Shown here: one piece after another, positions 7,809 to 55,088 of the stretch
Layout: each line of letters opens with the position of its first letter
Numbering within the stretch: the stretch's first letter is position 1
Origin: a phage
NCBI GenBank assembly: GCA_037431425.1
Contig: GCA_037431425.1_4129.1
Reading direction: 5' to 3' (one strand)
DNA: 64,000 nt
Program-made: the position numbers and the translations under genes
The notes under the pieces: generated by a model
Databases searched by the model: none
Told to the model about the DNA's origin: nothing
The model's input: the letters and a program-made list of their open reading frames with translations, nothing else

Positions 7809-8762
7809 ATGACCACACTATGGACTGAAAAATATCGCCCACAAACAATGGAAGATTATGTATCAAAAAATGATGCTCTACGTCAGAAAATGGAAGAATG
7901 GATTAAAACTGGCGACATTCCACATATTGGTTTTTTTGGCCCAGCAGGAACTGGTAAAACATCTGCAATTAAAGTACTTATTAATGGTTTGGTTCAGAAC
8001 GGACACCTCGATCCAAGTGACGTAACCACACTTAATATGTCAGATGAAGGTATTGATGCTGTGCGTGATAAAATCGATGCCGCAGCAAAACTATCATGCT
8101 TTGGTCGATATCGTATTTTTGTTCTTGAAGAAATGGAACAAATGAACCATAAAGCACAAGGTAGCTTGAAGCGTGTTATGGAAGACTATCATGAAAATGC
8201 TCGCTTTATTTTAACAAGTAATGAACCACATAAAATTCAAAAACCTATTATCTCTCGCGTTCAAGTCATTACAATTGAAAAACATGACATGGAACAGTTC
8301 ATGACAAGAATTTATAATATCCTTCTCGCTGAAGGTGTTGATCTGAGTAGTGATGATAGTGTTGAACAAGTTCAAAAGTACATCAATGCTTCATATCCAG
8401 ATTTTCGTAAAACGCTAAACGTATTGCAAAGTTCAGTTGTTGATGGTAAACTAGTCAAACTTGAGGATAGTATTGAAAATTCTGCCGGATATCGCACTGC
8501 AATCATTGATGCGTTGAAGGCAGGAAATATCCGTCAAATGCGAGAGCAAATTGTTCAATCTATTCCTGATGATGAAATGGATGCATTTTTCTCGTACTTG
8601 TACCGAAATGCGGAAATGTTCAGTACTGACGAAATCACACTGATGAAGATTAAAGTTAAAATTCGTGATGCTGTTGTTAAGCAAGCAACTGTATCCGACC
8701 GTGAAATGAATCTTAGTGCATTGTTGTGTGAGATTGATCTAATTTGTTCGGGGAACATGTAA
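7809..8762 (+). CDS. AAA+ ATPase, clamp-loader large subunit-like (RFC / T4 gp44 family)
   Basis: EKYRP, Walker A GPAGTGKT, Walker B FVLEE, FPDFRKT motif as in recalled T4 gp44; ATG 7809 after GAAGGAAA RBS. Confidence 0.65.
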   Translation: MTTLWTEKYRPQTMEDYVSKNDALRQKMEEWIKTGDIPHIGFFGPAGTGKTSAIKVLINGLVQNGHLDPSDVTTLNMSDEGIDAVRDKIDAAAKLSCFGRYRIFVLEEMEQMNHKAQGSLKRVMEDYHENARFILTSNEPHKIQKPIISRVQVITIEKHDMEQFMTRIYNILLAEGVDLSSDDSVEQVQKYINASYPDFRKTLNVLQSSVVDGKLVKLEDSIENSAGYRTAIIDALKAGNIRQMREQIVQSIPDDEMDAFFSYLYRNAEMFSTDEITLMKIKVKIRDAVVKQATVSDREMNLSALLCEIDLICSGNM

Positions 8763-24452: not shown

Positions 24453-26333
24453 ATGAAACCTATCCGAGTACTATCTCTTTTTAATGGGATGAGTGTAGGA
24501 TACATGGCATTAAAAGATGCTGGTATCCCTGTTGAAAAATATTATTCATCCGAAATTGACAAATTTGCTATAGCTGAATCCCAAGCTAACTTCCCCGATA
24601 TCATCCAATTGGGTGATGTAACTAGATGGAGAGAATGGGATATTGAATGGGATAAGATAGATCTACTGATGGGTGGTTTTCCATGCTTCCCAGCAGGAAC
24701 TATGATAATGACAAATAAAGGTCATAAAGATATAAAAGATATAAAAATTGGTGATATGGTTCTTACACACACTGGACAGTACCAAAAAGTATTGAGTACT
24801 GGTGTTAAAAAGGCTCCCACTCGTATTATTACAGGTCAAGGTCACCTTCCAATTGAATGTACCGATAATCATCCATTTTGGAGTAGGGAACGTCTAGCCA
24901 ATAAATGGAATAATCAACACCGAAGATATGATTCTGTGTTTTCTGAACCGCAATGGGTAAATGCTATAGATCTTACTAAACAAAGTTATATTTGTAATGT
25001 TAAAAATATTACACATAATACAGTAAGTGATAAAGATGAAAAATATTGGTATTTTGTTGGTCGTTTTATGGGTGATGGATGTGCTAGTGTATCTAATAAC
25101 AAATACAGTATTACTATTGTAGATTCATTAGATAAAGTTGATGAATTGAAAAAATGTTTTGATGATTTTGGATACAAATACACATTAGCTATTAAAGATA
25201 ATCATGTAAGATGTGATATATATAGCAAAAAGCTTTATGATGAATTAATATGTATTGGGCATAAATCACAAAACAAATGTTTACCACCTGAAATATTCAA
25301 TGAAACTATCAATAACAAAGAAGCATTTATTAAAGGATACATGGATGCAGATGGTTGTGAGGATAAACACAATAAAAAATACAAATTTACCACCACAAGT
25401 TATAAAATAGTTCTTGGTATGCAACAGTTAATCTTAGATACTTATCAACGTCATTGTACTATTAGTCAAACTGTTCCAAAAACAAAAAAATATATAAAAA
25501 ATAAGTTGGTTAATCAGCTTCCGTATTGGAATGTTCATTTTAGCTATAATAAAATTAAAAGAGATGATGTAATATATGATGAAATTTATATATGGAATCG
25601 TGGTGTAAAAAGTAATGTACCAACCGGAGAATGGAAAACCGTTTACAATATTGAAGTTGCAGTAGATAACACATATACAGCGAACAATATTGTAGTTCAT
25701 AACTGCCAAGCGTGGTCAGTTGCAGGTAAACAGGGTGGAATAAATGATCCTCGTGGTATGTTATTCCATACAATGGTTGATATTTACCAGCACATAAAAA
25801 GTCTCAATCCAGACTTGAAAGTACTGTTCGAGAATGTTAAAATGAAAGAAGATTTCAAGCAATACATTAATAGTGTTCTTGAGATGACACCAGTACTGAT
25901 AAATTCCCAGCATTATACGCCTCACTTCAGGCAGAGATATTACTGGTACAGTACTGATAAACTTTTTATACCACCTGCATTATCAAATGCACCTAAACTT
26001 CAAGATATTATTGAAGATGGTTGGTACACTGACAGAACCGCTTCGTACTGTATAGATGCTAACTATTTTAAGGGTGGGGATTGTAACCAGTACTTTAATA
26101 AATCAAGAAGACAAATTGTTTTCAAAGAACCTGATATCGATAGGGATTTCCTTCTTGAACATGGTAAGCGAAATGTGGACTATCGTCATTTAACAGTGCA
26201 AGAGTGTTGCATGTTGCAAGGAATTGATGTAAACTACTTCAAAGTTAGTAGTTCAACACAAGCATACAAAATGCTTGGGAATGGATGGACTATGCCAGTT
26301 ATATCACACTTACTACGAGATATATTCTTTTGA
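24453..26333 (+). CDS. DNA (cytosine-5)-methyltransferase precursor containing an intein
   Basis: 626 aa; motif I SLFNGMSVG; motif IV GGFP|CQAWSVAG split by 340-aa insertion; ENV motif (LFENV) in C-extein; extein about 286 aa. Confidence 0.8.
   Translation: MKPIRVLSLFNGMSVGYMALKDAGIPVEKYYSSEIDKFAIAESQANFPDIIQLGDVTRWREWDIEWDKIDLLMGGFPCFPAGTMIMTNKGHKDIKDIKIGDMVLTHTGQYQKVLSTGVKKAPTRIITGQGHLPIECTDNHPFWSRERLANKWNNQHRRYDSVFSEPQWVNAIDLTKQSYICNVKNITHNTVSDKDEKYWYFVGRFMGDGCASVSNNKYSITIVDSLDKVDELKKCFDDFGYKYTLAIKDNHVRCDIYSKKLYDELICIGHKSQNKCLPPEIFNETINNKEAFIKGYMDADGCEDKHNKKYKFTTTSYKIVLGMQQLILDTYQRHCTISQTVPKTKKYIKNKLVNQLPYWNVHFSYNKIKRDDVIYDEIYIWNRGVKSNVPTGEWKTVYNIEVAVDNTYTANNIVVHNCQAWSVAGKQGGINDPRGMLFHTMVDIYQHIKSLNPDLKVLFENVKMKEDFKQYINSVLEMTPVLINSQHYTPHFRQRYYWYSTDKLFIPPALSNAPKLQDIIEDGWYTDRTASYCIDANYFKGGDCNQYFNKSRRQIVFKEPDIDRDFLLEHGKRNVDYRHLTVQECCMLQGIDVNYFKVSSSTQAYKMLGNGWTMPVISHLLRDIFF
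24684..25703 (+). mobile_element. intein with LAGLIDADG homing-endonuclease domain
   Basis: starts CFPAGTMIMT (block A), TDNHPFW (block B TxxH), two LAGLIDADG-like motifs (FVGRFMGDGCAS, FIKGYMDADGCE), ends VVHN followed by Cys +1. Confidence 0.8.
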
Positions 26334-36743: not shown

Positions 36744-36747
36744 AATC

Positions 36748-37188
<441 letters not shown>

Positions 37189-37216
37189 GTATCTTAACAA
37201 CAGAAGGTATATTGAA

Positions 37217-50145: not shown

Positions 50146-50643
50146 ATGACAACAGTTTACATTGATAAACGATTAAATTTATTGATTACTGATTCTAGAG
50201 TTACATTAACCATACCACGAAACTTATTTGGTATTTTCCCACTAAAACCAAAATATCAATATGAAGTTGTTAATCAAAAAACTTTATATGTACATGACCG
50301 TTTATTCAGTGCTAGTGGGACAATAAGTGAAATTGATAAAGTACTGAATTGGTTAATTAACAAAGAACCTGTTATACCGCACAAAAAACTAGGTTGTCAT
50401 TGTGTTCTACTATCCAAAGATTATATCATTCACATGAATATATCTAATGGTAAGTTCACTAAGAAACTTCAATATCTTCATGAAGACTATACATTCTTTA
50501 TGGGAAGTGGTGGAGAGTATATGGTAGATGCAGCAATACATGAAGACACTACGACTTTATGTAATAAAGTTTTTAGTACATTCATGGACGTTCATAACCA
50601 TGATTCTTTTACAGATAGTAATATTAATGTGTATAAATTTTAA
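50146..50643 (+). CDS. hypothetical protein
   Basis: 165 aa. Confidence 0.55.
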   Translation: MTTVYIDKRLNLLITDSRVTLTIPRNLFGIFPLKPKYQYEVVNQKTLYVHDRLFSASGTISEIDKVLNWLINKEPVIPHKKLGCHCVLLSKDYIIHMNISNGKFTKKLQYLHEDYTFFMGSGGEYMVDAAIHEDTTTLCNKVFSTFMDVHNHDSFTDSNINVYKF

Positions 50644-50664: not shown

Positions 50665-51630
50665 GTGAAAAAACTTGATTTGAATACAATTGCAGATGAA
50701 GTTCTGGATGAATGCTTTGGTAATGAAGAAGTGAATACGCTGGATGCGTTAGAACCAGTTCAAGAAAAAGATAACATTGACGAGAAAAATAATGGTAATT
50801 TCAAGTTTAATATTAGTCTTAAGCGACCAGCAAATGTAACAAATGAAGATATTATTCGTGATATTCAAGCAGGTATTAACGTAAAGAAAAATACTGAACT
50901 ATTAGTTCGTTATAATTACGGTTTGATTATTGATGTTGCAAGTAAATGCACGTGTTATATTCCATTTGAAGATAAGATTTCATATGGCATTGAGGGATTC
51001 ATGCGAGCATTAAAAACATTTGACCTTAGTAAGAATGTAAAGTTCGCTACGTATGCATCGTCAAGTATCTATATGACTGTATACAATGAAAGCTCAGATG
51101 CTAATCATCTGGTCCACTTCCCTCGTTACATGAGTGTTAATAAGATACAAGTGAAACGCTTCTGTCATAATTATGAGCGTCAGCATGGTTGTCGTCCTAC
51201 ACCTGAAATTATTTCTGAAGAGACTGGTATTGAAATCCAGCACGTTAAGAATTGTTTATTATTCCAAAGTGAATATACTTCACTGGATGCACCATTGGAT
51301 GGTGTTTCTGATGGGACGATGAGTGATATTCTGCATTCATCTGAAGGTGATTATAATCTTAATGTTGACAGTATTCGTGCACCGTTGCGTTATACCATCA
51401 ACGAACTAACTAATGAGTTGAGTGCTAAGGAATGTGAGATTATTCAACGTGTTCATGGATTAGGTGAATTTAATCCTGAAACACTACGTGAAATTGCTGA
51501 TAGTGGTTTTATTGATGACAATGGTAAGTGTGTAAAATCCAGATCTTCGGTTCATCGTAAATACAGTGATGCTCTTAAGAAACTCAAGAAATTAGTGCTC
51601 GCTAAAGGGTACGAATACGAAGATTTCTAA
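50665..51630 (+). CDS. RNA polymerase sigma factor, sigma-70 family (regions 2 and 4)
   Basis: 321 aa; GTG start after AGGAGAAG RBS; region 2-like FMRALKTFD...KFATYASSSI and region 4 HTH-like LREIADSGF...SRSSVHRKYSDALKKLKKL. Confidence 0.6.
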   Translation: MKKLDLNTIADEVLDECFGNEEVNTLDALEPVQEKDNIDEKNNGNFKFNISLKRPANVTNEDIIRDIQAGINVKKNTELLVRYNYGLIIDVASKCTCYIPFEDKISYGIEGFMRALKTFDLSKNVKFATYASSSIYMTVYNESSDANHLVHFPRYMSVNKIQVKRFCHNYERQHGCRPTPEIISEETGIEIQHVKNCLLFQSEYTSLDAPLDGVSDGTMSDILHSSEGDYNLNVDSIRAPLRYTINELTNELSAKECEIIQRVHGLGEFNPETLREIADSGFIDDNGKCVKSRSSVHRKYSDALKKLKKLVLAKGYEYEDF

Positions 51631-51636
51631 ATTGTA

Positions 51637-51663
51637 AAGGTTGGCATATGCCAACCTTTTTTA
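51637..51663 (+). terminator. intrinsic terminator
   Basis: AAGGTTGGCAT/ATGCCAACCTT palindrome followed by TTTTTT. Confidence 0.8.
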
Positions 51664-51947
51664 TTGGGACACAGAATAAATATATGATATAATAATTATG
51701 TACAATCCTGTTGAATGCAGAAATGCATATAAATTAGAACCTGATCCTATCGAAAACGTAGATGGCAGATGAGCAGTTCAGCAGTGCGATGAGCAGAAGA
51801 AACCCGTCAGAAGTGGGCATAGTTTGAACCCCTCACGGCAATGCGGCTCAATAAAGAACTCCGATAAGCATACAGAGAGTTCCTAGATAGACATATAAGG
51901 AATCACACCTTACCAGATTTGCTAAGGGAGTCTTGAAATAAGACAGC

Positions 51948-52253
51948 TTGAGCTTTGATTGTATAGAGTTTCAAGTGAGTGCTGGGATGAAAAGACCAGT
52001 GACCGTTGCATATGACCGTGATAGGGAGAAACAGAGCAACCCGCTTCCGTTTGTGATTGATCATTTTAACAATATAGATCCGTCCAAAATTCACGATACA
52101 ATAATATCCGATGCCATCAGCGTCAAGAAGAGACTTAATTGTCTCTTTTTTATTACTTTCATTCCCCTGTGGGGGGATGAAATAGTCCTCAACAAATCCC
52201 GTCAAGTATTAAAAGTCCTAGACAGTTATGAAACATTCGCGTATAATACGTAG
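51948..52253 (+). CDS. questionable ORF in compositionally atypical region
   Basis: 101 aa ORF almost fully overlapped by a 100-aa antisense ORF; region more GC-rich than surroundings. Confidence 0.3.
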   Translation: MSFDCIEFQVSAGMKRPVTVAYDRDREKQSNPLPFVIDHFNNIDPSKIHDTIISDAISVKKRLNCLFFITFIPLWGDEIVLNKSRQVLKVLDSYETFAYNT

Positions 52254-52311
52254 TATTAGAAGCGAACAGACATCTCGAAGAGATGGATGATTAACTATTA
52301 AGGAATATCCA

Positions 52312-52521
52312 ATGAATTCAATCATATTTTTAGTAGTAGCTTTCTCTGTTAATTCCGGTGTACAAATAACCCCAATGAATTCCATGAATCAATGTATAGC
52401 AGTTCGTGATAGTACATACGAACAAGTAAACAAAAATATTAGAATGACAGTTAGTAAAGAACAAATGTGGTGTTACAATAGTAATACTAACGCAAAGCTT
52501 ATTGTAGGACAAACTCAATGA
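52312..52521 (+). CDS. small secreted/membrane protein
   Basis: 69 aa; hydrophobic N-terminus; RBS AAGGAA. Confidence 0.5.
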   Translation: MNSIIFLVVAFSVNSGVQITPMNSMNQCIAVRDSTYEQVNKNIRMTVSKEQMWCYNSNTNAKLIVGQTQ

Positions 52522-52748
52522 GTTATGGTGTTCGTTTTGAGATTCGCTCTATTGTTATTAATGATGATAAGAAAGCATCGTTAGATAGTGATATACGTGA
52601 AATTTATCTATCATGTATCCGTGCAAAATCTGAAGCAGATGCATTAGCACAAATGTATAGTTTTAACTTTTCAAACGGATTTAATTTGGAACGAGTTATT
52701 GAAGTGAAAAAAGTACTTATAGGTTGTAGCATAGAAGGAATCATGTAA
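52518..52748 (+). CDS. hypothetical protein
   Basis: 76 aa. Confidence 0.5.
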   Translation: MSYGVRFEIRSIVINDDKKASLDSDIREIYLSCIRAKSEADALAQMYSFNFSNGFNLERVIEVKKVLIGCSIEGIM

Positions 52749-52749
52749 A

Positions 52750-53538
52750 ATGTGCACTATAGATGAACTGATTCGACGGAATTCAAAATATTACAAACCA
52801 TCAGAAATTGTAGATAACATTACTAAATCAGAGTTCGGACCAAATACACGAAAACTAATTCATGTAATGTTACGTGATGGCTTTAAATGTGATTGTTGTG
52901 GTGAATCCAATGTGGTATTCACTTTACATAAGCACAGTACTAAAGAACGTTATAAATTCAGACCTTATGTACTTAAAGGGAAACGCCTTGTACGCATGAC
53001 GTTAGACCATAATGTACTGGACTGTCTTCAGGGCGGTAATGATAAAGAAAACATGACTGCACTGTGTGAGGATTGCAATGCATTACGCCAGCATAAATTT
53101 GCTGAGTACAGCGAGTTTAAGTTCTGGTATCATAATGCAGATCGTTCTATTGAACCTGACGTTAACTACTGCTTTATCGAGTACATTAAGAATGCAAAAG
53201 ATACATACATTCTTAAATCTATGGAACCAATTACCGTGTTTCCAATGAACCTATACACTACATTAAAGAATAGTTTTATGGTAGGTGATATTGATGCATT
53301 CAAGTATTTTGACAAAGGTGCAAAACATTTTGAAGTTCAATGTCTTAGTACTGCACTATGTGAACTTATTAAAATTTACATAAAAGATTATTTGGGTATT
53401 GACAATGTACGCGTACCAGAGTATACTTTTTCTATTGATTTCGATTGTGAATCAATCAAAGAGTTTGGGATTCTTTTCAATAAACAAATAGAACTTGCAA
53501 TTCAAAACGAAATCAAGTACTATAATACTAACATTTAA
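52750..53538 (+). CDS. HNH endonuclease (putative free-standing homing endonuclease)
   Basis: 262 aa; Cys pairs CDCCG / CEDCN flanking LDHNVLDCLQGGN (H-N-H core). Confidence 0.7.
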   Translation: MCTIDELIRRNSKYYKPSEIVDNITKSEFGPNTRKLIHVMLRDGFKCDCCGESNVVFTLHKHSTKERYKFRPYVLKGKRLVRMTLDHNVLDCLQGGNDKENMTALCEDCNALRQHKFAEYSEFKFWYHNADRSIEPDVNYCFIEYIKNAKDTYILKSMEPITVFPMNLYTTLKNSFMVGDIDAFKYFDKGAKHFEVQCLSTALCELIKIYIKDYLGIDNVRVPEYTFSIDFDCESIKEFGILFNKQIELAIQNEIKYYNTNI

Positions 53539-53553
53539 TCAGAGGAAATTATT

Positions 53554-53736
53554 ATGCAAATCATCATTCTTATCGTAGGTATCATTCTTGGTGTATATGG
53601 TCACTCCTGGATGAACGAGAAGTTCCCTAATACCCGTCCTGAGTATTGCAGTACGAATGTATACCAGAATGGTGAGAAACCAAAGGAAAGTATTGGTAAA
53701 AAGCTGGACAAAGTACTTGACGTTATCAACGAATAA
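53554..53736 (+). CDS. small membrane protein
   Basis: 60 aa; N-terminal TM; RBS GAGGAAA. Confidence 0.5.
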   Translation: MQIIILIVGIILGVYGHSWMNEKFPNTRPEYCSTNVYQNGEKPKESIGKKLDKVLDVINE

Positions 53737-53745
53737 GGGTAAAGT

Positions 53746-53946
53746 ATGTTTAAATCAAATACAAATGTTGGTAAGAAGGTTAAATTACTTGAGGATGTAT
53801 CCACCTTGAGTGGAATTTTCCCAAGAGGTCACATCATGACTATTATTGCAGAAACATCCCGTGGGTGGGATTTGGAAGATGCTGATGGTAATCGCATCCT
53901 TGAGGCTGGATTCTATGGTCATCGTGAATATAAAATCATTGATTAA
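53746..53946 (+). CDS. hypothetical protein
   Basis: 66 aa. Confidence 0.5.
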   Translation: MFKSNTNVGKKVKLLEDVSTLSGIFPRGHIMTIIAETSRGWDLEDADGNRILEAGFYGHREYKIID

Positions 53947-53955
53947 GGATGTAAC

Positions 53956-54039
53956 ATGACTTTAGAGATTGTCTTTGGTATTGTTAGCTTAGTCGTCTGT
54001 GTGGGTTGGTTTGGGTATCTGATGATTTTTGGTGATTAA
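53956..54039 (+). CDS. small hydrophobic peptide (27 aa)
   Basis: not in track; RBS AAGGA; single TM. Confidence 0.35.
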   Translation: MTLEIVFGIVSLVVCVGWFGYLMIFGD

Positions 54040-54042
54040 TAC

Positions 54043-54070
54043 TTGACATAAGATATCAGTACTGTATAAT
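54043..54070 (+). promoter_or_regulatory. sigma70-type promoter (TTGACA-16-TATAAT)
   Basis: TTGACATAAGATATCAGTACTGTATAAT; spacer contains CAGTACTG. Confidence 0.7.
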
Positions 54071-54163
54071 GTTTATATCAAAGGGAATGCAGTGAAAGGA
54101 AAGACAGCATAATCGTACTCGTCACTGTGTTCCTTTACTTTTAAATTAAATGAGGAATTAACT

Positions 54164-54472
54164 ATGTTTCAAACTAACACTCAAGGTTTTGTAATCATTG
54201 ATTTGAATCAAAACAGCGGTAATTGGATGAAACCTACTGACGCATGTATGCAGTTTGATTTCTTAGGTTACAGAATTAGTGTAAGCACTGGTGCTTCTGT
54301 ACTGAGGGGTGGTTGTATTGTTGAACATCTGGTAACTGATCCAGAAGGTCGTGAGTATGAAATCGCAGGTTCAGTACAAGATGCCATTATGTTTGTATGT
54401 CAGCGTGAAATGAATGGTTCGAATTCAAATGCACTGACTCATGCTCTTTCTCAAGAAGTGGAGATTCGTTAA
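54164..54472 (+). CDS. hypothetical protein
   Basis: 102 aa; RBS GAGGAA. Confidence 0.55.
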   Translation: MFQTNTQGFVIIDLNQNSGNWMKPTDACMQFDFLGYRISVSTGASVLRGGCIVEHLVTDPEGREYEIAGSVQDAIMFVCQREMNGSNSNALTHALSQEVEIR

Positions 54473-54723
54473 TGAAATACATTGTAGCAGTACTCGTCGC
54501 ATTTTTACTCACTGCATGTGATGCTTCAACCAAAGAACGCACAAGTGATTTTATTCTCCCGACTGAATTAAAAGAAGCCGGATGTAAGATTTATCGTATG
54601 CAAAAGGACGGTGCTGATGTAACCTTGTATACAGTTTATTGCCCTAATGCAAATACCAGTACTGGATACACTAGCGGTAAAACACGAGTCAATACTTCAG
54701 TGATTAATGGAGTACAACAATGA
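54472..54723 (+). CDS. small lipoprotein
   Basis: 83 aa; signal peptide with lipobox LLTAC. Confidence 0.55.
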   Translation: MKYIVAVLVAFLLTACDASTKERTSDFILPTELKEAGCKIYRMQKDGADVTLYTVYCPNANTSTGYTSGKTRVNTSVINGVQQ

Positions 54724-55088
54724 GCCTTGATACAACCCGTGCAACAGATTTATTAACTCGTCTGAATGATGAAGAATATCTTGCTGAAATAAAGTACAAG
54801 CTTGACAAACTGGTTCGAAGTGCTGAAGTAATTGAAGTTGAAGGTCACTTACCAATGGATCAATTCCATACGTTCAACGAAGAGATGGTTTATTATCCTA
54901 ATGAAATTTGGATTGAGTGGCAACATTGGACTGGTAAAACACTACGTATTGAAGGGTATTGTGTGAAGTATGAACGTGATCCTGGTTATGTGACAAAAAC
55001 TTTGTCAATTTGGTGTACAAAAACACATGAACTCGTTGAGGTGAATTTGAATTATATGAATGGCTTCCGTTGGGGTGATGTTAAATGA
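54720..55088 (+). CDS. hypothetical protein
   Basis: 122 aa. Confidence 0.55.
   Translation: MSLDTTRATDLLTRLNDEEYLAEIKYKLDKLVRSAEVIEVEGHLPMDQFHTFNEEMVYYPNEIWIEWQHWTGKTLRIEGYCVKYERDPGYVTKTLSIWCTKTHELVEVNLNYMNGFRWGDVK

What the first reader, a model, noticed from the sequence alone, without database searches (positions are those of the whole stretch)
52750..53538. Free-standing HNH endonuclease
Clear HNH core (LDHNVLDCLQGGN) flanked by Cys pairs. Together with the intein-borne LAGLIDADG enzyme this indicates active homing-endonuclease traffic; the target could be a neighbouring gene in related phages.
Basis: partly seen in the sequence, partly recalled or inferred. Interest (0 to 1): 0.35.

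Follow-up and report, generated by a model that had tools for sequence, protein, structure and literature searches.

The report
Resident HNH endonuclease gene, jumbo coliphage
The ORF is a real, intact HNH-type DNA-cutting enzyme gene already annotated in near-identical giant E. coli phages. It is an old, mostly fixed resident of this locus that a few relatives lack in whole or in part, so it is an ordinary finding with some comparative detail added.

Summary
The ORF at 52750-53538 (+) encodes a 262-aa protein with an intact zinc-ribbon HNH core: C47/C50, D86-H87, N101, C106/C109, N110. These residues are invariant across a 22-member family alignment.

The window is an Asteriusvirus (121Q/PBECO4-like jumbo coliphage). 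The gene is the ortholog of 121Q gp170 and is 98.5% identical to the ph0011 "HNH endonuclease". Pfam HNH is sub-threshold for this protein, but PHROG HNH families hit strongly.

"Active homing traffic" is only partly supported:
- The gene sits at the same place, downstream of the phage sigma-factor gene, in 29 of 34 Asteriusvirus genomes.
- It is under purifying selection (dN/dS about 0.1).
- Distant homologs lie downstream of the sigma gene in other Rak2-like genera.

There is, however, a real presence/absence polymorphism:
- Four phages (JNE01, Turkey5, ECO103 4-12-1, EC22.5-2) have orf76+HNH replaced by a ~75-bp promoter-like spacer.
- Phage A4 has a precise in-frame loss of the nuclease module, leaving an 87-aa C-terminal ORF.
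- The C-terminal ~105 aa is a sharply bounded cassette with two ancient alleles.

No function has been tested. The most likely role is a free-standing, early-expressed DNA endonuclease acting in phage-phage competition or homing.

The parts
52750..53538 (+). HNH endonuclease gene (262 aa). Ortholog of 121Q gp170, ph0011 WAE77366.1 and fEgEco12 g522.
   Evidence: ORF list; 98.5% aa identity to ph0011, 94.6% to 121Q; annotations; phrog_35175 E 8e-181.
52750..52884 (+). N-terminal helical region (aa 1-45), basic (pI 9.0). Candidate DNA-contact region.
   Evidence: AF2 helices H4-10, H17-21, H31-43; pI. Role is inferred.
52885..53109 (+). Zinc-ribbon HNH (beta-beta-alpha-metal) catalytic core, aa 46-120: C47/C50, D86-H87, N101, C106/C109, N110.
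   Evidence: Invariant columns in the 22-sequence alignment; Pfam HNH/HNH_5 stretch aa 83-122; strands and helix in the model; weak PDB fold hits to Gme HNH 4h9d, McrA and Cas9 HNH.
53110..53220 (+). Conserved linker (aa 121-157) with the family motifs FAEYxEFKxWY and NYCxI(D/E)F.
   Evidence: Alignment A4: A118, F123, K124, N139 invariant; F117, Y120, E122, Y127 nearly invariant.
53221..53545 (+). Exchangeable C-terminal cassette (aa 158-262 plus stop). About 35% nt divergence from the fEgEco12-type allele, with sharp boundaries on both sides. Predicted helices; acidic in this phage (pI 4.8 for aa 181-262).
   Evidence: Differences per 30 nt jump from <=4 to 7-19 at 53221 and fall to 0-2 after 53551; dS 1.40 vs 0.20 for the nuclease core; two allele classes among 32 records; helices H166-177, H184-193, H196-214, H236-258 at pLDDT about 87-97; pI.
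52759..53289 (+). 531-bp segment (aa 4-180, the nuclease module) that is precisely and in-frame absent from phage A4. A4 keeps an 87-aa ORF made of the first 3 codons plus the C-terminal module. Junctions carry the microhomology ATAGATG / ATTGATG.
   Evidence: dN/dS of the A4 ORF vs the fEgEco12 C-terminus is 0.14.
52509..53534 (+). About 1.03-kb segment (orf76 + HNH) absent from JNE01, Turkey5, ECO103 4-12-1 and EC22.5-2. There it is replaced by a ~75-bp spacer with TTGACA-N17-TATAAT (JNE01) or TTGACA-N17-TATACT (EC22.5-2).
52518..52748 (+). orf76 (76 aa, phrog_28392, unknown function). Its stop is 1 nt before the HNH start codon. Co-absent with HNH in the empty alleles, but not linked to HNH in the metagenomic relative L013.
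52312..52521 (+). orf69, the left flank. Its 3' end differs systematically between HNH-bearing and HNH-less alleles. Candidate location of a target or immunity polymorphism.
   Evidence: Junction sequences. The target role is inferred only.
53554..53736 (+). orf60, the right flank. Adjacent to HNH also in the 58%-identical relative L013.
52219..52247 (+). Sigma-70-like promoter (TAGACA-17-TATAAT, 11/12) ahead of the orf69-orf76-HNH-orf60-orf66 run. Suggests early, host-RNA-polymerase transcription.
   Evidence: Consensus scan; 93-94% nt conservation of 52200-52300 in 121Q, fEgEco12 and A4. Function not shown; the overall promoter count is not above shuffles.
52125..52150 (+). Terminator-like hairpin plus T-run upstream of that promoter. 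Would delimit the transcription unit on the left.

Best explanation
The ORF is the Asteriusvirus copy (121Q gp170 ortholog) of a 260-340-aa HNH endonuclease family apparently confined to Rak2-like jumbo phages.

How it most likely works:
- The protein is a zinc-ribbon beta-beta-alpha-metal nuclease. By homology, H87 acts as general base, D86 and N110 hold the divalent metal, N101 braces the hairpin, and C47/C50/C106/C109 bind structural zinc.
- It is probably transcribed early with orf69 and orf76 from a sigma-70-like promoter.
- It probably nicks or cuts DNA at semi-specific sites.
- Its most likely biological role is that of a long-resident free-standing homing/exclusion endonuclease. In mixed infections it would act on relatives that carry the HNH-less allele near the orf69/orf60 junction, favouring inheritance of its own locus.
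- It is dispensable for lytic growth.
- The C-terminal ~105 aa is a separately evolving module of unknown role (specificity or partner binding). It exists as two ancient alleles and survives alone in phage A4.

Shown: gene, motifs, family, synteny, selection, locus polymorphism, mosaic structure.
Inferred: catalysis, early expression, target, competitive role.
For: - Intact ORF and motifs; invariant catalytic and zinc residues across 22 homologs down to 22% identity.
- PHROG HNH hits at 8e-181 and 3e-30; Pfam HNH/HNH_5 in 15-18 of 22 family members.
- AF2 model at pLDDT 84.5 with the beta-beta-alpha core; BFVD fold matches to phage HNH endonucleases.
- Purifying selection: dN/dS 0.10 overall, 0.03-0.11 in the core.
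- Free-standing position in a run of small co-directional genes, with a promoter-like site at 52219-52247.
- Four isolated phages lack orf76+HNH and A4 lacks the nuclease module, so the gene is dispensable and polymorphic.
- The empty-site sequence (3' end of orf69 plus spacer) is about 90% identical between JNE01 and EC22.5-2, including a roughly 65-nt identical run. The two loci are otherwise 78% identical and carry different sigma-factor alleles, so occupied and empty states both circulate across backgrounds.
- The nuclease core is 93-99% identical between clades whose local average is 85%, with no synonymous change in codons 61-90. The 58%-identical relative shows about 50% synonymous change there, so this is recent shared ancestry, not nucleotide-level constraint.
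- The CBB homolog was described, from annotation only, as a free-standing homing endonuclease (PMC5259590).
Against: - No cleavage, target site or homing has been tested for any family member.
- Distribution is near-fixed (29 of 34), not sporadic.
- The position is syntenic in a 58%-identical relative, and the homolog is broadly downstream of the sigma gene in other genera. This fits vertical inheritance with occasional loss as well as it fits homing.
- Long-term purifying selection at fixation is more typical of a gene useful to the phage than of a purely selfish element.
- Mosaic identity of 64-99% per 500 bp is normal for this genome region, so the high identity of the core is not exceptional.
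- The C-terminal module of this phage is acidic (pI 4.8), which does not suggest a DNA-binding specificity domain.
- This protein's own Pfam HNH score is below the gathering threshold.
Confidence: 0.5

Rival explanations
1. Domesticated accessory nuclease. The enzyme has been kept because it benefits the phage directly, for example early degradation or nicking of host or foreign DNA, or processing of recombination/replication intermediates. It is no longer mobile, and the HNH-less alleles are simple deletions.
For: - Near-fixation at one locus, dN/dS about 0.1, and catalytic residues invariant down to 22% identity.
- Synteny with orf60 in a 58%-identical relative, and homologs always downstream of the sigma-factor gene on the same strand in Munch-like, Mimasvirus and Eneladusvirus phages.
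- Position in an apparently early operon.
- The A4 event is clearly a deletion with microhomology at the junction.
Against: - Five viable isolates do without the nuclease.
- Rak2, K64-1 and Muenster have the sigma gene and an orf66-like sequence but no detectable homolog.
- The empty allele is shared by two divergent backgrounds, which needs recombinational spread rather than one recent deletion.
- No self-protection system (such as a linked modification gene) is evident at this locus. Linkage to a Dam-like methyltransferase is seen only in GAP32.
Confidence: 0.3
2. Packaging-associated HNH. The protein assists the large terminase in genome-end cleavage, like HK97 gp74. This was suggested for HNH genes of Eneladusvirus phages in PMC7760394.
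For: - The best PDB fold hit is the small zinc-ribbon HNH nickase Gme HNH (4h9d), a class often found next to terminases, but the match is weak (E 0.19).
- Literature suggestion.
Against: - No terminase or portal gene in the syntenic 50 kb. The neighbours are a sigma factor and small hypothetical genes.
- The protein is 262 aa with extra modules, not about 100-130 aa.
- Viable phages lack it.
Confidence: 0.03
3. The functional unit under selection is the C-terminal module, as a regulator, partner-binding domain or nuclease-neutralising (immunity-like) domain. The HNH part would be a cargo that can be lost. The two C-terminal alleles would be two specificities.
For: - A4 keeps the C-terminal module as an intact, in-frame 87-aa ORF with dN/dS 0.14 against the fEgEco12 allele.
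- The cassette has sharp recombination boundaries and two ancient alleles.
- The module is a confident, compact helical unit and is acidic in this phage.
Against: - One in three random deletions is in frame, and the low dN/dS may largely predate the deletion.
- Only one such stand-alone copy exists in 5.8 billion proteins.
- The module aligns along the whole family, so it is an ancestral part of the enzyme.
- Four phages lack it altogether.
- No fold or profile match gives it a function.
Confidence: 0.1

Closest known systems
Annotated orthologs: Escherichia phage 121Q gp170 (AIT14060.1), ph0011 WAE77366.1, PBECO4 YP_009150667.1, fEgEco12 g522; PHROG phrog_35175
   Same: Same gene at the same locus; 77-98.5% aa identity; full-length profile match at E 8e-181.
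   Different: Nothing of substance. These entries are annotation only and no experiment exists. Many records call it "hypothetical protein".
Wider jumbo-phage HNH family (phrog_25420): GAP32_520, CBB gp444 (called a free-standing homing endonuclease in PMC5259590), Yersinia fHe-Yen9-04 g517, Munch_499
   Same: Same N-terminal region, zinc-ribbon HNH core, FAEYxEFKxWY and NYCxIDF linker motifs, and an alignable helical C-terminal region. All lie downstream of the phage sigma-factor gene on the same strand.
   Different: - 22-42% identity only.
- 280-340 aa, with an extra basic C-terminal tail that the Asteriusvirus protein lacks.
- Overall basic (pI 9-9.7) versus 6.7 here.
- Different immediate neighbours, 5-16 kb from the sigma gene.
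Pfam HNH (PF01844) / HNH_5 (PF14279); zinc-ribbon HNH nickases such as Gme HNH (PDB 4H9D); McrA and Cas9/IscB HNH domains
   Same: The D-H ... N ... N motif on a beta-beta-alpha-metal core with two CxxC pairs; fold-level and motif-level resemblance.
   Different: - This protein is below the Pfam gathering scores.
- PDB fold matches are weak (best E 0.19).
- No solved structure is detectable by sequence.
- The last metal ligand is Asn, not His.
Free-standing HNH homing endonucleases of T-even and SPO1-like phages (MobE, I-TevIII, I-HmuI). Comparison from general knowledge, not tested here.
   Same: Stand-alone ORF between conserved genes; N-terminal nuclease plus a separate C-terminal module; presence/absence among relatives with colinear flanks; dispensable.
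   Different: - No detectable sequence relationship was found here.
- Distribution is near-fixed rather than sporadic.
- No cleavage or homing data.
- The C-terminal module here is acidic and has no recognisable DNA-binding motif.
Terminase-associated HNH proteins (HK97 gp74 type; Kala et al. 2014, as cited in PMC7760394)
   Same: HNH fold of phage origin.
   Different: Not next to terminase or portal genes, twice the size, and absent from viable relatives.

Membership tests
HNH (beta-beta-alpha-metal) nuclease superfamily | Asp-His (general base) at the end of the first strand of the hairpin | tested here: met
   D86-H87, invariant in 22 of 22 aligned family members; lies at the end of strand E79-87 in the model.
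HNH (beta-beta-alpha-metal) nuclease superfamily | Central Asn and a final His/Asn metal ligand in the helix | tested here: met
   N101 and N110 invariant; N110 follows C109 at the start of helix H107-113. This is the H-N-N variant.
HNH (beta-beta-alpha-metal) nuclease superfamily | Profile match to Pfam HNH at or above the gathering score | tested here: not met
   PF01844 scores 15.7 bits vs cutoff 21.4 and PF14279 scores 15.6 vs 27.5, E about 0.016. Indirect support: 15 and 18 of 22 homologs match at E <= 0.01, and PHROG HNH families match at 3e-30 to 8e-181.
HNH (beta-beta-alpha-metal) nuclease superfamily | Metal-dependent nuclease activity | not testable with these tools
   Needs purified protein.
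Zinc-ribbon (Cys4) HNH subclass | Two CxxC pairs flanking the catalytic hairpin | tested here: met
   C47-x2-C50 and C106-x2-C109, all invariant.
Free-standing homing endonuclease gene | Own ORF in an intergenic position, not in an intron or intein | tested here: met
   ORF map and flanks. In HNH-less relatives orf69 and orf60 are separated by only a ~75-bp spacer.
Free-standing homing endonuclease gene | Sporadic presence/absence among close relatives with colinear flanks | tested here: inconclusive
   Present in 29 genomes, wholly absent in 4 and nuclease-less in 1 of 34. The empty allele occurs in two backgrounds. But the gene is syntenic in more distant relatives, so loss is as likely as gain.
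Free-standing homing endonuclease gene | Cleaves the endonuclease-less allele near the insertion point and is copied into it | not testable with these tools
   Needs an in vitro cleavage assay and phage crosses.
Free-standing homing endonuclease gene | Signs of horizontal spread (the gene is more similar between lineages than its flanks) | tested here: inconclusive
   Nuclease core is 93-99% identical vs an 85% regional mean; dS is 0.20 vs 0.56-2.2 for the upstream genes but 0.02-0.36 for the downstream genes. The region is generally mosaic.
Terminase-associated (packaging) HNH | Adjacent to terminase/portal genes; small (~100-130 aa) protein | tested here: not met
   No terminase in the window's large ORFs or in the syntenic 50 kb of fEgEco12. 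The protein is 262 aa.
Known anti-phage defence nucleases (PADLOC) | Profile match to a defence-system component | tested here: not met
   Only a 0.033 E-value match to a type II REase model outside the HNH core.
Acyl carrier protein-like C-terminal domain | PP-binding profile match and a conserved phosphopantetheine-attachment serine | tested here: not met
   PDB 2qnw matches only at E 0.2. No Pfam match for aa 161-262 or for A4_184 at E <= 1. S235 is not conserved in the wider family.

The most novel reading that the evidence does not exclude
The locus is a two-part competition system. The C-terminal ~105-aa cassette would be an independently functional module, either a specificity/partner-binding unit or an immunity-like neutraliser of the nuclease. 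It has two ancient alleles and is retained alone in phage A4. Occupied, nuclease-less and empty alleles would then be maintained in Asteriusvirus populations by nuclease-mediated exclusion between co-infecting jumbo phages.
Probability: 0.1. Interest if true: 0.5.

Novelty: already known. Interest (0 to 1): 0.22.

Why it matters
As a gene call it adds nothing new. Near-identical proteins are already deposited as "HNH endonuclease" in 121Q, PBECO4, ph0011 and others.

What the comparison adds is a concrete test bed for whether such long-resident HNH genes in giant phages are selfish, competitive or useful:
- Natural HNH-plus, nuclease-deleted and empty alleles exist in otherwise colinear, culturable coliphages (for example Turkey3 vs Turkey5, and A4).
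- The candidate target region is narrowed to the orf69/orf60 junction.

The family has no solved structure and no biochemistry.

Tried and rejected
- ACP-like C-terminal domain. The lead was PDB 2qnw at E 0.2, with a D..ES motif resembling the ACP serine. Rejected: no Pfam PP-binding match, the serine is not conserved in the family, and the model has three long helices rather than an ACP bundle.
- P0023, a 971-aa protein with 14 matches to aa 174-213. It is a low-complexity repeat protein and the match is spurious.
- The first structure prediction, with 4 sequences, was too poor to use (pLDDT 56). It was replaced by the 22-sequence run.
- Foldseek against PDB with the whole model gave only weak HNH hits and nothing for the C-terminal module.
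- Profile search of PDB sequences gave no meaningful hit.
- "Decaying" copies as evidence of a homing cycle. The CMSTMSU frameshifts are 1-bp homopolymer deletions in an UNVERIFIED record with many fragmented ORFs. SD-1_S14 has a 31-bp deletion, but in a short, probably incomplete assembly. Not used as evidence.
- The fEgEco12 paper (PMC13070987) lists two HNH endonucleases (Gp520, Gp570) and the sigma factor (Gp519) as absent from Ecwhy_1. If one of those is this gene, the absence is an artefact, because the Ecwhy_1 record is linearised inside the HNH gene (H61, H97) and also carries the sigma gene.
- The IMG/VR scan returned only 121Q itself. The C-terminal-module profile search of 5.8 billion proteins returned only A4_184.
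- PADLOC and NCBIfam gave no family membership. The only hits were weak similarity of the HNH core to the IscB model and a marginal type II REase match outside the core.
- Rfam and tRNA scans of 51000-54500 found nothing relevant.
- Nucleotide-level constraint on the catalytic core, suggested by zero synonymous changes in codons 61-90 within the genus. Rejected because the 58%-identical relative shows about half of identical-aa codons changed there.
Full report
**What is there**

The quoted motif LDHNVLDCLQGGN is aa 85-97. CDCC (C47, C49, C50) lies upstream and CEDCN (C106, C109, N110) downstream.

The window is a jumbo coliphage of the genus Asteriusvirus. The stretch 51500-55000 is 98.4% identical to Escherichia phage ph0011 and about 91% identical to 121Q, PBECO4, phAPEC6 and others. 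The ORF is the ortholog of 121Q gp170, ph0011 WAE77366.1 and fEgEco12 g522, all deposited as "HNH endonuclease". The exact protein sequence is also on record as a hypothetical protein in an "Escherichia coli" assembly contig of 126 kb.

**Is it an HNH nuclease?**

- Pfam HNH and HNH_5 match aa 83-122, but below their gathering scores (E about 0.016).
- PHROG HNH families match at 8e-181 (full length), 3e-30 (aa 15-181) and 5e-12.
- An exhaustive HMMER search of 1.84 billion representatives found 139 relatives at E <= 1e-3 and 28 at <= 1e-10. Most of the close ones are 280-340 aa.
- In a 22-sequence alignment reaching 22% identity, C47, C50, T84, D86, H87, L90, G95, N101, C106, C109, N110, R113, A118, F123, K124 and N139 are invariant.
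- 15-18 of those 22 proteins match Pfam HNH/HNH_5 at E <= 0.01.
- AlphaFold2 with this alignment gives mean pLDDT 84.5. The model has N-terminal helices (aa 4-43), a three-strand-plus-helix HNH core (E55-61, E68-76, E79-87, E102-106, H107-113), linker helices, and a confident C-terminal helical unit (H184-193, H196-214, H236-258).
- Foldseek matches in BFVD are phage HNH endonucleases.
- In PDB only weak HNH matches appear: Gme HNH 4h9d at E 0.19, McrA, and Cas9 HNH. No solved relative is detectable by sequence.

The catalytic assignment (H87 base; D86/N110 metal; N101 structural; Cys4 zinc) is by homology, not by test.

**Context**

The gene lies in a run of small co-directional genes 1.1 kb downstream of a phage sigma-70-family gene (50665-51630). 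The orf76 stop codon is 1 nt before the HNH start codon, and orf69 and orf76 overlap by ATGA.

A terminator-like hairpin (52125-52150) is followed by TAGACA-17-TATAAT (52219-52247) ahead of orf69. This suggests an early transcription unit orf69-orf76-HNH-orf60-orf66, with a perfect TTGACA-16-TATAAT at 54043 starting the next unit. These are consensus matches only.

No terminase or portal gene is nearby, and there is no match to a defence system.

**Distribution**

tblastn finds one full-length copy at the same locus in 29 distinct Asteriusvirus phages:
- 21 records at 93-98.5% aa identity.
- 9 records at 75-77%.
- Ecwhy_1, whose record is linearised inside the gene.

More distant Rak2-like phages carry 28-42%-identical homologs that match aa 10-184. 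These are Munch/7t3, GAP32, CBB, Serratia BF, Yersinia fHe-Yen9-04 and the Erwinia phages. In each of them the homolog is on the same strand as, and downstream of, the sigma-factor gene:

| Group | Distance downstream of the sigma gene |
|---|---|
| Asteriusvirus | 1.1 kb |
| Munch/7t3 | 5.3 kb |
| Eneladusvirus and Mimasvirus | 9-16 kb |

Rak2, K64-1 and Muenster have the sigma gene but no detectable homolog.

A metagenomic relative (P0003, 58% identity) has the order sigma ... orf69 ... HNH-orf60 ... orf102, the same order as in the window. Munch has an orf91-like gene 1.4 kb downstream of its homolog. This is the pattern of an old resident.

**Selection and mosaicism**

- Against 121Q, dN/dS is 0.10. 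For the nuclease core (aa 1-120) it is 0.03-0.11 in three comparisons.
- Against the fEgEco12 clade the gene is a mosaic: aa 1-120 has dS 0.20, aa 121-180 has dS 1.06, and aa 181-262 has dS 1.40 with dN 0.42.
- Differences per 30 nt jump from <=4 to 7-19 at 53221 (aa 158) and fall back to 0-2 right after the stop codon. The C-terminal ~105 aa is therefore a sharply bounded cassette.
- The cassette exists as two ancient alleles: type I in 21 records and type II in 10 records plus A4, with about 47% aa identity between the types.
- Regional identity between the window and fEgEco12 averages 85% and ranges from 64 to 99% per 500 bp, so mosaicism as such is normal here.
- Codons 61-90 show no synonymous change within the genus, but about half of the identical-aa codons differ in the 58%-identical relative. 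This indicates recent shared ancestry of the core rather than nucleotide-level constraint.

**Locus polymorphism**

1. Phage A4.
- At the syntenic site A4 has an 87-aa ORF consisting of the first three codons plus the type II C-terminal module. The 531 bp encoding aa 4-180 are missing in frame.
- The junctions carry ATAGATG / ATTGATG-type microhomology, so this is a deletion.
- The remaining ORF shows dN/dS 0.14 against fEgEco12.
- It is the only stand-alone copy of the module found in the 5.8-billion-protein collection.

2. JNE01, Turkey5, ECO103 4-12-1 and EC22.5-2.
- These four lack both orf76 and HNH. orf69 and orf60 are separated by a ~75-bp spacer carrying TTGACA-N17-TATAAT or TTGACA-N17-TATACT.
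- JNE01 carries a sigma allele 57.7% identical to the window's, similar in divergence to the fEgEco12-clade allele (57.8%). EC22.5-2 carries one 82.9% identical, like the 121Q group.
- The two loci are 78% identical overall, yet the 3' end of orf69 plus the spacer is about 90% identical, with a roughly 65-nt identical run.
- So both the occupied and the empty state circulate across backgrounds. The orf69 3' end also differs systematically between the two states.

All five nuclease-less phages were isolated on E. coli hosts, so the gene is dispensable.

**Interpretation**

The data establish an intact, selected, free-standing zinc-ribbon HNH endonuclease gene of a jumbo-phage-specific family. 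They do not show recent insertion or "active traffic".

The cross-background presence/absence polymorphism, the dispensability, and the high similarity of the nuclease core are compatible with a long-resident homing/exclusion endonuclease. Its target would lie near the orf69/orf60 junction of empty alleles. I rate this the most likely role (about 0.5).

The main rival is a domesticated accessory nuclease with occasional loss (about 0.3). It is favoured by the near-fixation, the deep synteny and the persistent purifying selection.

A packaging role is very unlikely, given the context, the protein size and the dispensability.

The role of the C-terminal cassette is unknown:
- It is acidic in this phage (pI 4.8), whereas the C-terminal 100 aa of the distant family members examined are basic, pI 9.4-10.2.
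- It has no profile or fold match.
- An early ACP-like hint was rejected.
- An independent function (partner binding or immunity-like) is not excluded, but the evidence is thin.

**Comparison with the known, and verdict**

The gene is already annotated in near-identical phages. The CBB homolog was called a free-standing homing endonuclease on annotation grounds (PMC5259590), and HNH genes of Eneladusvirus were guessed to act in packaging (PMC7760394). No family member has been studied experimentally in the literature searched.

As a finding it is ordinary. The useful by-product is a set of natural alleles that makes the homing question directly testable.

Noticed in passing
window 51631-52311: A 681-bp gap between the sigma-factor gene and orf69. 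It holds a terminator-like hairpin (51636-51659), a promoter-like site with an extended -10 (51664-51693), about 430 nt with no annotated gene in relatives, and a second terminator-like hairpin (52125-52150). RNA folding of 51700-52155 gives z = -3.2; there is no Rfam family. Possibly a non-coding RNA or a degraded gene. The 51900-52200 part is poorly conserved within the genus, while 52200-52300 is 93-94% conserved.
   Followed up: partly
window 24453-26333: A 626-aa DNA methyltransferase ORF whose middle part matches PHROG families annotated as ribonucleotide reductase and helicase, which fits an intein insert. The fEgEco12 ortholog (g455) is only 286 aa, and window ~24700-25800 has no counterpart in fEgEco12.
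   Followed up: partly
L012 (JNE01) 7836-7917; L014 (EC22.5-2) about 2852-2931; window 54043-54070, 37149-37193, 36747-36784: Near-perfect sigma-70 consensus promoters (TTGACA-N16/17-TATAAT) sit in short spacers between small genes, and similar copies recur within the window. One such spacer replaces orf76+HNH in the empty alleles. These promoter spacers may be recombination points.
   Followed up: partly
window 50665-51630 (sigma-factor gene): The phage sigma-70-family gene is highly polymorphic within the genus. Alleles are 99.7%, 83%, 71% and 58% aa identical to the window's, with dS up to 2.2. This is far more divergent than the genes a few kb downstream, which are 94-98% identical.
   Followed up: no
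whole window / protein cluster of the HNH gene: The exact protein is recorded as EMR6006036.1 in an "Escherichia coli" assembly (126-kb contig). Many 335-357 kb contigs labelled E. coli carry cluster members. Complete Asteriusvirus genomes are therefore common inside bacterial isolate assemblies, through carrier state or contamination.
   Followed up: no
L011 (Salmonella phage SD-1_S14) about 956-986 of the gene region; L010 (CMSTMSU): SD-1_S14 has a 31-bp deletion that frameshifts the HNH gene after aa 122. CMSTMSU has two 1-bp homopolymer deletions. The latter look like sequencing errors in an UNVERIFIED record; the former may be real or an assembly artefact.
   Followed up: partly
window 50146-50643: The 165-aa ORF just upstream of the sigma-factor gene has a weak HslV-family peptidase match (phrog_1040, E 9e-5) and is annotated as an HslV subunit in fEgEco12.
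   Followed up: no
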